A stretch of DNA of 64,000 nucleotides. Source: Escherichia coli (lineage in GTDB: Bacteria > Pseudomonadota > Gammaproteobacteria > Enterobacterales > Enterobacteriaceae). A program made the translations under genes and the position numbers. Below the pieces are notes generated by a model. That model was not told the DNA's origin and searched no databases. It saw only the letters and a program-made list of their open reading frames with translations. The stretch is taken from the NCBI RefSeq assembly GCF_044324875.1, contig NZ_CP172185.1, one strand, 5' to 3'. This document shows positions 1 through 52,099 of the stretch, piece by piece (positions within the stretch are counted from its first letter, which is position 1; every line of letters begins with the position of its first letter).

Positions 1-398
<398 letters not shown>

Positions 399-450: not shown

Positions 451-546
451 ATGGGGGCCGGATACAAAAAGGGCCGCAGGCTGTTACCCCTGCGGCCGGT
501 TTCGGGCGCATATTGCCATCACGGCAGCCTGACGCCCGTTTTCACC

Positions 547-654
547 TTACTTCCGGTTACGCCACCAGCTGACAATCACTGCGGTAATAATCCCCGCCAG
601 GATCGGTGCCGCCAGGTCGTGCCAGAAAATCATGGCAAACTGCGCGAGCGTCAT
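547..654 (-). CDS. ldr: Ldr type I toxin peptide (35 aa), copy 1
   Basis: Minus-strand ORF translated by hand: MTLAQFAMIFWHDLAAPILAGIITAVIVSWWRNRK; below ORF-track size cutoff. Confidence 0.8.
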   Translation of the reverse strand: MTLAQFAMIFWHDLAAPILAGIITAVIVSWWRNRK

Positions 655-702
655 ATAGCCGCCTTGTTGTAATGACAACAATTTGCGGCTATTCTTGAAT
701 TG

Positions 703-768
703 TTCTGGTTCAAGATTAGCCCCCGTTCTGTTGTCAGGTTGTACCTCTCAACGTGCGGGGGTTTTCTC
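703..768 (+). ncRNA. rdl: Putative Rdl antisense RNA, copy 1 (approximate ends)
   Basis: Plus-strand TTGTAA-17bp-TATTCT promoter-like hexamers at ~667-695 and terminator hairpin cccccg...cggggg plus T-run at ~719-770; ~66 nt transcript antisense to ldr leader. Confidence 0.4.
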
Positions 769-1081
769 TTTCCAGCAACCAATGCCACCAGGGATAAAGC
801 CCCCGCAACATTGCGCCTCACCGGATAACGCCGGCTTGGTGTGGATACTACGACTCAATTCATCTTCACTTCATCCCTGAAATGTTTGCAATGAAGAGTG
901 CATTCCGGTTTTTCAACAGCTGTTACAGTCGTTTCATGAGTGCTCTGAATGATGCTTCCAGCTCGGGTTGCCAATATTTACTTGTGGAAGAGATAAAGAC
1001 AAAAAGGGCCGCAGGCTGTTACCCCTGCGGCCGGTTTCGGGCGCATATTGCCATCACGGCAGCCTGACGCCCGTTTTCACC

Positions 1082-1189
1082 TTACTTCCGGTTACGCCAC
1101 CAGCTGACAATCGCTGCGGTAATAATTCCCGCCAGGATCGGTGCTGCCAGGTCGTGCCAGAAAATCATGGCAAACTGCGCGAGCGTCAT
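1082..1189 (-). CDS. ldr: Ldr type I toxin peptide (35 aa), copy 2
   Basis: Same ORF in second repeat; one amino-acid difference (V to A) plus synonymous changes. Confidence 0.8.
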   Translation of the reverse strand: MTLAQFAMIFWHDLAAPILAGIITAAIVSWWRNRK

Positions 1190-1237
1190 ATAGCCGCCTT
1201 GTTGTAATGACAACATTTTGCGGCTATTCTTGAAGTG

Positions 1238-1303
1238 TCTGGTTTCAAGATTAGCCCCCGTTTTGTTGTCAGGTTTTACCTCTCAACGTGCGGGGGTTTT
1301 CTC
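1238..1303 (+). ncRNA. rdl: Putative Rdl antisense RNA, copy 2 (approximate ends)
   Basis: Same promoter and terminator elements in second LDR unit. Confidence 0.4.
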
Positions 1304-1593
1304 TTTCCAGCAACCAATGCCACCAGGGATAAAGCCCCCGCAACATTGCGCCTCACCGGATAACGCCGGCTTGGTGTGGATACTACGTCTCAATTCATCT
1401 TCACTTCATCCCTGAAATGTTTGCAATAAAGAGTACATTCCGGCTTTTCAACAGCTGTTGCAGTGGTTTCGTGCAGGTTCTGGTACAGGCTCGCAATTCT
1501 GATTAACAACCTGTTCAGGTAGTATGAAGAAATACAATAAGCAGAAATTTATATTATCTCCCCCGATTTCAGTCATCGGAGGAGATATAACTG

Positions 1594-2694
1594 TCAGGCA
1601 AATATCGTCATCAAATAGGCGGCAAACAGTGCCAGATGCGCTGCGCCATTGAGCACGTTAGTACGTCCGGTGGAGAAGGAGATATGGCACAGCACTAAAG
1701 AGGCCACCATCACCACCATTTCTGGCGCACCAAGTGCAAACTGCAATTCGTTACCCGTCATAAAGGCAATTAGCGTGACGACAGGTACGGTAAGCGAAAT
1801 GGTTGCTAACACTGAACCAAAGAACAGATTCATCGCGCGCTGGACCTGGTTGTTCAACACTGCTTTTAACGCACCTAAACCTTCCGGCGACAGAATCAAC
1901 AGAGCCACCAGGAAGCCAGTAAAGGCGACAGGGGCATTCATGCTGTCGAGCAATGTCTCCAGCGGTCTGGCGTTCATTTTGGTCACCGCAATAACGGCAA
2001 TCAGATGGACAATCAACCAGATAGCATGCCACAGGCTGCTATGGGCAGACGGTTTACCGTGGTGCGGGTCGTCATCATCACTGTCATCTTCGTGCTCGTA
2101 GACAAATAAACTTTGATGCGTTTTGGTCTGGATCAGCAAAAATACGCCATACATTGCCGCAGAAATTAATGCTACCAGTAACGCCTGACCGGTTGAAAAA
2201 TTCGCCACAGGCAGAGCCATTGGAAATACCAGTACGATTATCGCCAGGGGGAACAGCGCAATTAAATACTGCTTGATACCAAACAGATTCATATATTGGG
2301 TGGCAAACTTGCGTCCGCCCAACAATAATGAAAAGCCAACCAGCCCACCGGTAACAATCATAATGATTGAATAGAGCGTATCACGCATTAGCGTTGGTGC
2401 GGCGTCGCCGGTTGCCATTAAAGCTGAAATCAAACTGACTTCAAGAATAACCACTGAAAGGCTAAGAATAAGCGAACCGTAAGGTTCTCCCAGGCGATGG
2501 GCTAATACGTCCGCATGACGGACAACACTAAAGGCGCTACTTAAAATACCAATAAGAGCAAGAAGATTGATGCCAATGACCACTGGTAGTGTCTGGCTGC
2601 TTCCCCACAGGAACAGCACTACCAGCGCCAGAACCGGGAAAATAAGCGAAGTCTCCTTGTGGCGGGTTTTTACCGCCTCTTGAGCATTTGACAT
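1594..2694 (-). CDS. chaA: Ca2+/H+ (Na+/H+) antiporter ChaA
   Basis: 366-aa polytopic membrane ORF starting MSNAQEAVKTRHKE; the longer 395-aa ORF in the track is an upstream extension. Confidence 0.9.
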   Translation of the reverse strand: MSNAQEAVKTRHKETSLIFPVLALVVLFLWGSSQTLPVVIGINLLALIGILSSAFSVVRHADVLAHRLGEPYGSLILSLSVVILEVSLISALMATGDAAPTLMRDTLYSIIMIVTGGLVGFSLLLGGRKFATQYMNLFGIKQYLIALFPLAIIVLVFPMALPVANFSTGQALLVALISAAMYGVFLLIQTKTHQSLFVYEHEDDSDDDDPHHGKPSAHSSLWHAIWLIVHLIAVIAVTKMNARPLETLLDSMNAPVAFTGFLVALLILSPEGLGALKAVLNNQVQRAMNLFFGSVLATISLTVPVVTLIAFMTGNELQFALGAPEMVVMVASLVLCHISFSTGRTNVLNGAAHLALFAAYLMTIFA

Positions 2695-3194: not shown

Positions 3195-3351
3195 AACCGG
3201 TAGCTTAGTTAAAGCTATTCGTGCGGTGTTGCCTTGCAAGTGGTCCGTGGATTGCATATTGTCCCGTTAGTGGTTTCAAAATGAGCAGTAAAAATGTCCG
3301 GAAGACACCAAAAAGTTGTCGCAGGGAAGTATGCAGTGGCGGAGGTGTAAG

Positions 3352-4047
3352 GTGATAACGCGTGATTTCTTGATGAATGCCGATTGTAAAACGGCATTTG
3401 GTGCCATTGAAGAATCACTCTTATGGTCAGCAGAGCAACGGGCGGCTTCGCTGGCGGCGACGCTGGCTTGTCGACCTGATGAGGGACCGGTGTGGATCTT
3501 CGGTTATGGATCGTTGATGTGGAATCCGGCACTGGAGTTTACCGAGTCGTGCACCGGTACACTGGTTGGATGGCATCGCGCGTTTTGCCTGCGTCTGACC
3601 GCCGGGCGCGGGACTGCGCACCAGCCGGGACGAATGCTTGCACTGAAAGAGGGCGGACGCACCACAGGCGTCGCCTATCGACTGCCAGAAGAGACGCTGG
3701 AGCAGGAACTAACCCTGTTGTGGAAGCGCGAGATGATTACCGGCTGTTATCTGCCAACCTGGTGTCAGCTTGATCTTGATGATGGACGCACAGTAAACGC
3801 CATTGTGTTTATTATGGACCCGCGACATCCAGAATATGAATCTGACACTCGCGCTCAGGTCATCGCGCCGTTGATTGCGGCGGCGAGCGGTCCACTGGGA
3901 ACCAACGCACAATACCTGTTTTCACTGGAACAGGAGCTTATCAAACTGGGAATGCAGGACGATGGGCTGAATGATTTGCTGGTATCGGTAAAAAAACTGC
4001 TGGCGGAGAATTATCCGGATGGTGTGTTACGGCCGGGATTCGCCTGA
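3352..4047 (+). CDS. chaC: Glutathione-specific gamma-glutamylcyclotransferase ChaC
   Basis: ORF with GTG start preceded by GGAGG; MITRDFLMNADCKTAF; 231 aa. Confidence 0.8.
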   Translation: MITRDFLMNADCKTAFGAIEESLLWSAEQRAASLAATLACRPDEGPVWIFGYGSLMWNPALEFTESCTGTLVGWHRAFCLRLTAGRGTAHQPGRMLALKEGGRTTGVAYRLPEETLEQELTLLWKREMITGCYLPTWCQLDLDDGRTVNAIVFIMDPRHPEYESDTRAQVIAPLIAAASGPLGTNAQYLFSLEQELIKLGMQDDGLNDLLVSVKKLLAENYPDGVLRPGFA

Positions 4048-17430: not shown

Positions 17431-17968
17431 GTGATGGTGGTTGGGGAAGGATTATTCAGCGCTGCGCGCTTCACCCTTCGGGTCGTTGCCTGCGGCAACG
17501 CTCTCTCGCTGGCGCTCGAGTCGAACCTTGGTCGAAGCTTCTCATCCTTCCCCGCTTGGGCAGAATATTTAATTACGGATTCGTTTGAGAGTTCAGGGAC
17601 TTTTGAAAGTGATGGTGGTGGGGGAAGGATTACTCAGCGCTGCGCGCTTCGCCCTTCGGGTCGTTGCCTGCGGCAACGCTCTCTCGCTGGCGCTCGAGTC
17701 GAGCCTTGGTCGAAGCTTCTCATCCTTCCCCGCTTGGGCAGAATATTTAATTACGGATTCGTTTGAGAGTTCAGGGACTTTTGAAAGTGATGGTGGTGGG
17801 GGAAGGATTACTCAGCGCTGCGCGCTTCGCCCTTCGGGTCGTTGCCTGCGGCAACGCTCTCTCGCTGGCGCTCGAGTCGAGCCTTGGTCGAAGCTTCTCA
17901 TCCTTCCCCGCTTGGGCAGAATATTTAATTACGGATTCGTTTGAGAGTTCAGGGACTTTTGAAAGTGA
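17431..17968 (-). repeat. Three tandem ~178-bp repeats of the tyrT operon distal region (rtT/tpr region)
   Basis: Units beginning at 17431, 17609 and 17786, each starting with a copy of the 3'-terminal ~19 nt of tRNA-Tyr; near-identical units. Confidence 0.9.
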
Positions 17969-18053
<85 letters not shown>

Positions 18054-51984: not shown

Positions 51985-52013
51985 AAAAAAAAGCCCGCTC
52001 ATTAGGCGGGCTG
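51985..52013 (-). terminator. trp attenuator (3:4 terminator hairpin)
   Basis: Minus-strand AGCCCGCCTAATGAGCGGGCT followed by U8. Confidence 0.9.
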
Positions 52014-52054
52014 GGTATCTGATTGCTTTACGCATGGTGAATACACTGCCCGTT

Positions 52055-52099
52055 TCAGGAAGTGCGCCACCAACCTTTCAGTACGAAAATTGCTTTCAT
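52055..52099 (-). CDS. trpL: trp leader peptide (14 aa, tandem Trp codons)
   Basis: Hand-translated [14 protein letters not shown]; below ORF-track cutoff. Confidence 0.9.

What the first reader, a model, noticed from the sequence alone, without database searches (positions are those of the whole stretch)
451..1520. Only two tandem LDR (ldr/rdl type I toxin-antitoxin) copies
Two ~480-bp units (466-945 and 1001-1480) each encode a 35-aa hydrophobic Ldr peptide on the minus strand and an apparent antisense Rdl RNA on the plus strand. My recollection is that K-12 carries three tandem copies (ldrA/B/C) at this kdsA-chaA locus, so this strain seems to have a contracted array, as expected from unequal recombination between repeats. 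The two Ldr copies differ by one residue (V vs A in the TM segment). The six-frame track instead shows spurious 61-79 aa plus-strand ORFs here.
Basis: partly seen in the sequence, partly recalled or inferred. Interest (0 to 1): 0.45.

Follow-up and report, generated by a model that had tools for sequence, protein, structure and literature searches.

The report
Two-copy ldr/rdl toxin-antitoxin repeat array
Between kdsA and chaA this E. coli strain carries two tandem copies of the well-known Ldr toxin / Rdl antisense-RNA module rather than the three in K-12, and this is an ordinary copy-number variant found in roughly a third of complete E. coli genomes.

Summary
Two 535-bp long direct repeats (464-998 and 999-1533; cores about 96% identical) fill the kdsA-chaA gap. 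Each encodes a 35-aa Ldr peptide on the minus strand (547-654, 1082-1189). Both match Pfam Ldr_toxin over its full length, at E about 1e-24. Each also has a 66-nt Rdl RNA on the plus strand (702-767, 1237-1302; Rfam rdlD, 86 and 92 bits against a threshold of 50), and each gene has its own terminator. The peptides differ only at residue 26 (V versus A). K-12 MG1655 does have three units here.

The word "contracted" is not supported. The inter-unit spacer is absent from about 25% of 5,426 complete E. coli genomes. About a third have it once (two copies), and a similar or larger share have it twice or more. O157:H7, strain 042 and this window's closest relatives all carry two units. The window's units match K-12 A and C. 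K-12 ldrB is a chimera of a C-type core and an A-type spacer, and O26 has a different middle unit. K-12 therefore looks expanded.

This is a known system and a known polymorphism, and the same locus is already in RefSeq at 99.8% identity. Interest is low.

The parts
1..398 (+). 3' part of kdsA (left flank of the array)
   Evidence: ORF ending at 398. RefSeq annotation of the matching locus as kdsA.
464..998 (.). LDR unit 1 (A-type): a 468-nt core at 464-931 plus the 67-nt inter-unit spacer at 932-998
   Evidence: It is 526/535 identical to K-12 LDR-A.
464..497 (-). Intrinsic terminator of the ldr-1 mRNA (9-bp GC-rich stem at 497-472, then a T-run)
547..654 (-). ldr-1, a 35-aa Ldr toxin with the V26 allele, identical to RefSeq WP_000170956.1 of strain SC418
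   Evidence: Pfam Ldr_toxin 1-35/35, E 2.9e-24. SC418 annotation and identical translation.
651..713 (-). ldrX-like leader frame of 20 codons. Its TTG start at 713 and a GGGGG Shine-Dalgarno-like run at 724-720 lie inside the Rdl-paired region. Its TGA stop overlaps the ldr ATG (ATGA). In unit 1 the frame stays open upstream to a GTG at 821 (56 aa).
   Evidence: The ldrX idea comes from PMC4147584 and PMC8167048. The assignment here is an inference, not a demonstration.
667..695 (+). Putative rdl-1 promoter (TTGTAA, 17 nt, TATTCT), 7 nt upstream of the Rdl 5' end
   Evidence: Read from the sequence. It matches 8/12 consensus positions, below the 9/12 threshold of the scan, so it is an inference.
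702..767 (+). rdl-1, a 66-nt antisense antitoxin RNA ending in its own terminator hairpin
   Evidence: RF01813, 86.3 bits, model 1-66/66. (terminator 743-762). (MFE -26.7 kcal/mol, z -4.55).
999..1533 (.). LDR unit 2 (C-type): core at 999-1466 plus a diverged tail at 1467-1533 facing chaA
   Evidence: It is 527/536 identical to K-12 LDR-C. The tail is 36/67 identical to the spacer, which 0 of 20000 shuffles reach.
999..1032 (-). Intrinsic terminator of the ldr-2 mRNA
   Evidence: stem 1032-1007, then a T-run.
1082..1189 (-). ldr-2, a 35-aa Ldr toxin with the A26 allele, identical to K-12 LdrA/LdrC and RefSeq WP_000170955.1
   Evidence: Pfam Ldr_toxin 1-35/35, E 1.8e-24.
1186..1248 (-). ldrX-like leader frame of unit 2 (20 codons from the TTG at 1248, ATGA overlap with ldr-2). 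The frame is closed further upstream, unlike in unit 1.
1202..1230 (+). Putative rdl-2 promoter (TTGTAA, 17 nt, TATTCT)
   Evidence: Read from the sequence. Inference.
1237..1302 (+). rdl-2, a 66-nt antisense antitoxin RNA. It differs from rdl-1 at 6 ungapped positions, mostly in the 5' tail and the loop.
   Evidence: 91.8 bits. (terminator 1278-1297). (z -5.11)..
1594..2694 (-). chaA (right flank of the array)
   Evidence: ORF ending at 1594; the chaA annotation of SC418 mapped onto window coordinates.

Best explanation
The kdsA-chaA intergenic region holds a two-unit array of the E. coli long direct repeat (LDR). Each unit is a complete type I toxin-antitoxin module. A minus-strand mRNA with a long 5' leader encodes the 35-aa membrane toxin Ldr. 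A 66-nt plus-strand RNA, Rdl, is transcribed from the opposite strand of that leader and ends in its own terminator. In the published model for ldrD/rdlD, Rdl pairs with the leader and blocks translation of a short leader frame (ldrX). The stop codon of that frame overlaps the ldr start codon, so toxin translation stays off, and RNase III cleaves the duplex. If Rdl is lost, Ldr inserts into the inner membrane and arrests growth. Copy number at this locus is a common polymorphism driven by unequal homologous recombination and gene conversion between units. The window carries the A-type and C-type units without a middle unit. This is most likely the older base arrangement, from which the three-unit arrays of K-12 and O26 arose by separate expansions and from which single-unit arrays (for example ST131) arose by contraction. 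What is shown here is the sequence anatomy, family membership, copy numbers across genomes and the mosaic structure of the units. What is taken from the literature on K-12 and not tested here is expression, toxicity and repression. The direction of the copy-number change is inferred.
For: Repeat structure. Ldr peptides: full-length Pfam Ldr_toxin matches; the identical proteins are annotated as Ldr family toxins in RefSeq. Rdl: full-length Rfam rdlD hits above threshold, stable folds and terminators for all four genes. ATGA overlap of a leader frame with ldr, with its TTG start inside the Rdl-paired region, in both units. Mechanism from the literature: PMC4147584 and PMC8167048 (ldrX coupling model); PMC7373196 (ldrD/rdlD duplex cleaved by RNase III); PMC12643268 (LdrA membrane toxicity; rdlA as translational repressor). 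K-12 has three units. Population: spacer in 4052 of 5426 genomes, 6315 chromosomal places, median 2, maximum 6, and a 30:30 split of one versus two places in a 60-genome spread. In the 40-genome spread, 11 are two-copy, 10 single-copy and 18 have three or more. Total LDR copies per genome range from 1 to 12. Two units occur in SC418, O157:H7, 042, PEC1020 and DA33137. W1 resembles K-12 A and W2 resembles K-12 C. K-12 B is a C-type core with an A-type spacer, and the middle unit of O26 is built differently. The ST131 single unit is A-like on the left and C-like on the right. The spacer and the chaA-side tail are diverged homologues, so a state of at least two units is old. Copy-number variation of Ldr among Escherichia and Shigella genomes (2 to 10 per genome) and lineage-specific duplications and losses were already reported (PMC2887945).
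Against: No expression or toxicity data exist for this strain. The ldr promoter could not be located, and the rdl promoter is only an 8/12 consensus match (one search found no promoter at its threshold). The ldrX-like frame is not conserved as an ORF with a canonical start codon in all units of other strains, so the coupling model may not hold as stated. On direction, a divergent Escherichia genome (E69, chaA 89% identical) has a single unit here, which could mean that one copy is ancestral. The units are so mosaic that no clean tree can be drawn. A 3-to-2 deletion with the crossover inside the 67-nt spacer would leave no trace.
Confidence: 0.9

Rival explanations
1. The strain descends from a K-12-like three-unit array and lost the middle unit (ldrB/rdlB) through unequal crossing-over, so the array is contracted.
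For: K-12 and many A and B1 strains have three units. Genomes with three or more units are at least as frequent as those with two. The W1 spacer is slightly closer to the K-12 B spacer (54/55) than to the K-12 A spacer (52/55). That would fit a crossover between A and B inside the spacer.
Against: W1 is A-type and W2 is C-type along their whole length, with no hybrid block. Two-unit arrays with A and C ends occur in several deep lineages: 042, O157:H7, SC418 and the DA33137 group. K-12 B is itself the chimera expected from a 2-to-3 expansion, and O26 has a different middle unit, so the three-unit arrays are not one inherited state.
Confidence: 0.25
2. The two-unit array is an assembly artefact. 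A longer tandem array was collapsed by the assembler.
For: Tandem repeats of 535 bp at 96% identity are a classic source of collapse in short-read assemblies. Nothing in the window itself can exclude this.
Against: The two units are distinct (A-type and C-type) and are joined by a normal spacer. The same two-unit structure is present at 99.8% identity in the complete-level assembly SC418 and in many closed genomes.
Confidence: 0.04
3. The units are decaying relics. They are sequence-recognisable but no longer make a working toxin or antitoxin.
For: No promoter reached the consensus threshold. Chromosomal type I modules are sometimes degenerate in some strains (stated for hok in PMC2887945).
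Against: Both ORFs are intact and match the Pfam model end to end. ldr-2 is identical in protein sequence to K-12 LdrA, which has been shown to be toxic (PMC12643268). Both Rdl RNAs match the Rfam model end to end and keep the stem and terminator. All four terminators are intact.
Confidence: 0.05

Closest known systems
E. coli K-12 LDR-A/B/C array (ldrA-rdlA, ldrB-rdlB, ldrC-rdlC) between kdsA and chaA (Kawano et al. 2002, cited in PMC12643268 and PMC4147584)
   Same: The locus, orientation, 535-bp period and gene content per unit are the same. Unit 1 is 98.3% identical to LDR-A and unit 2 is 98.3% identical to LDR-C. Ldr-2 is identical in protein sequence to LdrA and LdrC.
   Different: There are two units instead of three, with no equivalent of the chimeric ldrB unit. 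Ldr-1 carries V26 where K-12 LdrA has A26.
Two-unit kdsA-chaA arrays in RefSeq genomes (SC418 NZ_LR778147.1; O157:H7; strain 042; DA33137)
   Same: The architecture is the same. SC418 is 99.8% identical over 1401 bp and has identical Ldr proteins, WP_000170956.1 and WP_000170955.1.
   Different: DA33137, PEC1020 and Ch1 carry an IS200C between kdsA and unit 1, which the window lacks. The first unit of O157:H7 has a different mosaic pattern.
ldrD/rdlD (LDR-D), the experimentally characterised member
   Same: It belongs to the same toxin family (Pfam PF13940) and the same antitoxin family (Rfam RF01813, which is named after rdlD). The leader-antisense layout is the same.
   Different: LDR-D-type DNA is only about 78-82% identical to these units. 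LdrD is 74% identical to LdrA (PMC12643268). LDR-D lies at a different chromosomal locus, outside this window.
hok/mok/sok type I system
   Same: The proposed logic is the same: an antisense RNA blocks a leader ORF whose translation is coupled to that of the toxin (PMC4147584).
   Different: The toxin and RNA sequences are unrelated. For ldr, the coupling through ldrX is a proposal and has not been demonstrated.

Membership tests
Ldr toxin family (Pfam PF13940) | A peptide of about 35 aa matching the Ldr_toxin profile end to end | tested here: met
   model 1-35/35, E 2.9e-24 and 1.8e-24. NCBIfam returned nothing for either peptide.
Ldr toxin family (Pfam PF13940) | A hydrophobic transmembrane segment followed by a conserved Trp and a basic C-terminal cluster (Ldr/Fst superfamily signature, PMC2887945) | tested here: met
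   Read from the translations...AAPILAGIITA(V/A)IVSWWRNRK.
Ldr toxin family (Pfam PF13940) | Toxic to the cell when overproduced | not testable with these tools
   Ldr-2 is identical in sequence to K-12 LdrA, which is reported to be toxic (PMC12643268). The V26 variant is untested.
Rdl antitoxin RNA (Rfam RF01813 rdlD) | Sequence and secondary-structure match above the curated gathering score | tested here: met
   86.3 and 91.8 bits against a gathering score of 50, model 1-66/66; stable stem-loop, z -4.6 and -5.1.
Rdl antitoxin RNA (Rfam RF01813 rdlD) | Encoded antisense to the 5' leader of the ldr mRNA, not to its coding region or ribosome-binding site | tested here: met
   rdl lies at 702-767 and 1237-1302 (+). 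The ldr start codons are at 654 and 1189 (-). This leaves a 47-nt gap between each ldr start codon and the nearer end of its Rdl-complementary stretch.
Rdl antitoxin RNA (Rfam RF01813 rdlD) | Transcribed, and represses Ldr synthesis | not testable with these tools
   Only a weak promoter-like site (8/12) could be read upstream, and one search found none at its threshold.
Long direct repeat (LDR) array at kdsA-chaA | Head-to-tail units of about 530 bp between kdsA and chaA, each with one ldr and one rdl | tested here: met
   (period 535). (same flanking genes as K-12 and SC418).
   The window has no hybrid unit, and its closest relatives also have two units. K-12 B is itself a chimera. A crossover inside the spacer would be invisible, and no phylogeny-based reconstruction was possible.

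The most novel reading that the evidence does not exclude
The A-type plus C-type pair is the ancestral core of the kdsA-chaA array, and the two units are kept as two distinct modules. They differ in the Rdl 5' tail and loop (6 of 66 positions) and in the leader frame (open for 67 codons in unit 1 against 29 in unit 2). They may therefore be regulated separately and may not cross-repress. Middle units such as K-12 ldrB would then be recent, recurrent chimeras. This would make the array a natural series for studying how cis-antisense toxin-antitoxin pairs keep their specificity during concerted evolution.
Probability: 0.3. Interest if true: 0.3.

Novelty: already known. Interest (0 to 1): 0.1.

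Why it matters
It matters little beyond correct annotation. The region should be annotated as two ldr toxin genes and two rdl RNAs, not as the 61-79 aa plus-strand ORFs that a naive ORF caller reports. K-12's three copies should not be taken as the species norm. One, two and three copies are each common, and the array is a clear small example of unequal crossing-over and gene conversion in a bacterial chromosome.

Tried and rejected
- NCBIfam scan of both Ldr peptides, the four plus-strand ORFs and the 56-aa leader ORF found no match for any of them. Pfam was then used for the peptides and matched.
- The sigma-70 consensus scan found no promoter at its threshold in 380-1620. I could read only a weak rdl promoter by eye and could not place the ldr promoter.
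- The genome-contig scan with a degenerate Ldr motif, intended to obtain outgroup kdsA-chaA loci, returned only six stretches. Four are LDR-D-type loci in E. albertii, E. whittamii, Escherichia sp. and an E. coli draft. One is a 503-bp 'Bacillus' contig that is probably contamination. Only one (E69) covers kdsA-chaA. The outgroup test of direction is therefore weak.
- Sorting units into A-type and C-type with diagnostic columns to build a clean history failed. The units are mosaics, so only block patterns were used, not a tree.
- A search for a third or degenerate LDR copy elsewhere in the window found none.
- I considered that the V26/A26 difference might be special. V26 also occurs in the first or only unit of SC418, ST131 and 042, so it is a common allele.

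Full report
**What is in the sequence**

The window begins inside kdsA, whose ORF ends at 398. It reaches chaA on the minus strand at 1594-2694. The 1195-bp gap between them holds two head-to-tail repeats with a period of 535 bp, at 464-998 and 999-1533.
- The first roughly 468 nt of each unit are about 96% identical.
- The last 67 nt differ. In unit 1 they form the spacer to unit 2, and in unit 2 they face chaA.
- These two tails are still 36/67 identical without gaps. None of 20,000 shuffles reached that value, so they are diverged homologues and the true unit length is 535 bp.
- No third copy, complete or degenerate, exists anywhere in the 64 kb.

**Genes in each unit**

On the minus strand each unit has a 35-aa ORF, at 547..654 and 1082..1189. 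The translations are MTLAQFAMIFWHDLAAPILAGIITAVIVSWWRNRK and the same peptide with A at position 26. Both match Pfam Ldr_toxin over the whole model (E about 1e-24). They are identical to proteins that RefSeq names Ldr family toxins.

On the plus strand, 47 nt beyond each ldr start codon, Rfam's rdlD model matches end to end. The hits are at 702-767 (86.3 bits) and 1237-1302 (91.8 bits), against a gathering score of 50. Both RNAs fold into the expected long stem-loop (z -4.6 and -5.1).

All four genes have intrinsic terminators: ldr at 497-472 and 1032-1007, and rdl at 743-762 and 1278-1297.

A weak promoter-like site (TTGTAA, 17 nt, TATTCT) sits 7 nt upstream of each Rdl 5' end. This is my reading of the sequence, and the consensus scan found nothing at its threshold. 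I could not place the ldr promoter.

They have no NCBIfam match and are not annotated in RefSeq at this locus.

**How it most likely works**

The mechanism comes from published work on K-12 and not from this strain.
- LdrA and LdrD are small inner-membrane toxins, and rdlA RNA represses LdrA at the translational level (PMC12643268).
- RdlD pairs with the long 5' leader of the ldrD mRNA, not with its ribosome-binding site. Gerdes and Wagner proposed that it blocks a leader ORF, ldrX, whose translation is coupled to that of ldr (PMC4147584, PMC8167048).
- The ldrD/rdlD duplex is cut by RNase III (PMC7373196).

In the window, both units have a frame whose TGA stop overlaps the ldr ATG (ATGA). A TTG start (713 and 1248) and a GGGGG run just upstream of it both lie inside the Rdl-paired stretch. 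This fits the coupling model but does not prove it. In several units from other strains the same frame has no canonical start codon. The frame is open for 67 codons in unit 1 but only 29 in unit 2.

**Comparison with K-12 and the population**

Unit 1 of the window matches K-12 LDR-A (526/535), and unit 2 matches LDR-C (527/536).

The two-copy state is not unusual.
- The 71-nt spacer query found a match in 4052 of 5426 complete E. coli genomes. There were 6315 chromosomal places, with a median of 2 and a maximum of 6 per genome.
- In a 60-genome spread of that search, 30 genomes had one place and 30 had two.
- A 40-genome spread with the whole locus gave 11 two-copy, 10 single-copy and 18 three-or-more arrays.
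- Roughly a quarter of genomes therefore have one unit, about a third have two, and a similar or somewhat larger share have three or more.
- Total LDR copies per genome range from 1 to 12.
- Two units occur in O157:H7, strain 042 and SC418, which is 99.8% identical to the window across the locus. They also occur in the strains closest to the window over 24 kb of flanking sequence, such as DA33137.
- Fozo et al. 2010 already reported 2 to 10 Ldr genes per Escherichia or Shigella genome and lineage-specific duplications and losses (PMC2887945).

**Contraction or expansion**

I scored columns that distinguish the window's two units across 19 units from 10 genomes.
- The window's units are pure types.
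- K-12 ldrB is C-type through the core and A-type in the spacer. This is the middle unit expected when an unequal crossover between the A and C units of sister chromosomes expands a two-unit array.
- The middle unit of O26 has a different breakpoint, so the two three-unit arrays are not the same inherited state.
- The single unit of ST131 is A-like on the left and C-like on the right, as expected from a contraction.
- Together with the old, diverged spacer and tail pair, this points to a long-standing array of at least two units that repeatedly grows and shrinks. In that picture K-12 is an expanded state.

The caveats are real. The units are heavily mosaic. One divergent Escherichia genome (E69) has a single unit here. 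A 3-to-2 deletion with its crossover inside the spacer, which K-12 A and B share almost exactly (53 of 55), would leave no trace.

**Verdict**

The finding is real and correctly identified. It is a known system, a known polymorphism and a locus already present in RefSeq in essentially this form. Its main use is for annotation: two ldr genes and two rdl RNAs, not plus-strand hypothetical ORFs. It also shows that K-12's copy number is not the species reference state.

Noticed in passing
window 17435-18053 (minus strand): There is only one tRNA-Tyr gene (17969-18053), followed by three RtT repeats with a 178-bp period (17435-17922). K-12 has the tandem pair tyrT and tyrV here. The alignment shows that the roughly 210-bp segment carrying the second tRNA and its spacer is missing. 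This is a second tandem array in the window with fewer copies than K-12.
   Followed up: partly
L008 594-1052 and L016 1293-1751 (equivalent to window about 450-463): The strains closest to the window over 30-54 kb (DA33137 and its group, 99.2%), together with PEC1020 and Ch1, carry an IS200C transposase gene between kdsA and the first LDR unit. The window and SC418 lack it.
   Followed up: partly
window 932-998 versus 1467-1533: The inter-unit spacer and the chaA-side tail of the last unit are 54% identical without gaps (0 of 20,000 shuffles reach this), while the cores are 96% identical. Either the cores are being homogenised (concerted evolution) or they are under much stronger constraint than the tails.
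   Followed up: partly
window 651-821 (-) versus 1186-1248 (-): The leader frame that overlaps the ldr start (ATGA) is open for 67 codons in unit 1 (GTG start at 821, 56 aa) but only 29 codons in unit 2. In some units of other strains (042 unit 2, O157 unit 1, O26 unit 2, E69) it has no ATG, GTG or TTG start at all. The proposed ldrX ORF is therefore not uniformly conserved.
   Followed up: partly
L013 (NZ_JABWSY010000055.1, 503 bp): A 503-bp contig at 0.66x coverage in a 'Bacillus sp.' assembly carries LDR-like DNA that is 76-87% identical to the E. coli unit. It is most likely enterobacterial contamination of that assembly.
   Followed up: no
L014 (CP089930.1, 'E. coli' E69), 3271-3737: This genome serves as a separate species representative in the GTDB-based collection. 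Its chaA is only 89% identical to the window's, and it has a single LDR unit between kdsA and chaA. It was the only outgroup-like locus recovered.
   Followed up: partly
window 51985-52078 (minus strand): There is a full-length Rfam match to the tryptophan operon leader (93 bits). The window is collinear with the K-12 kdsA-trp region. Nothing unusual was seen.
   Followed up: no
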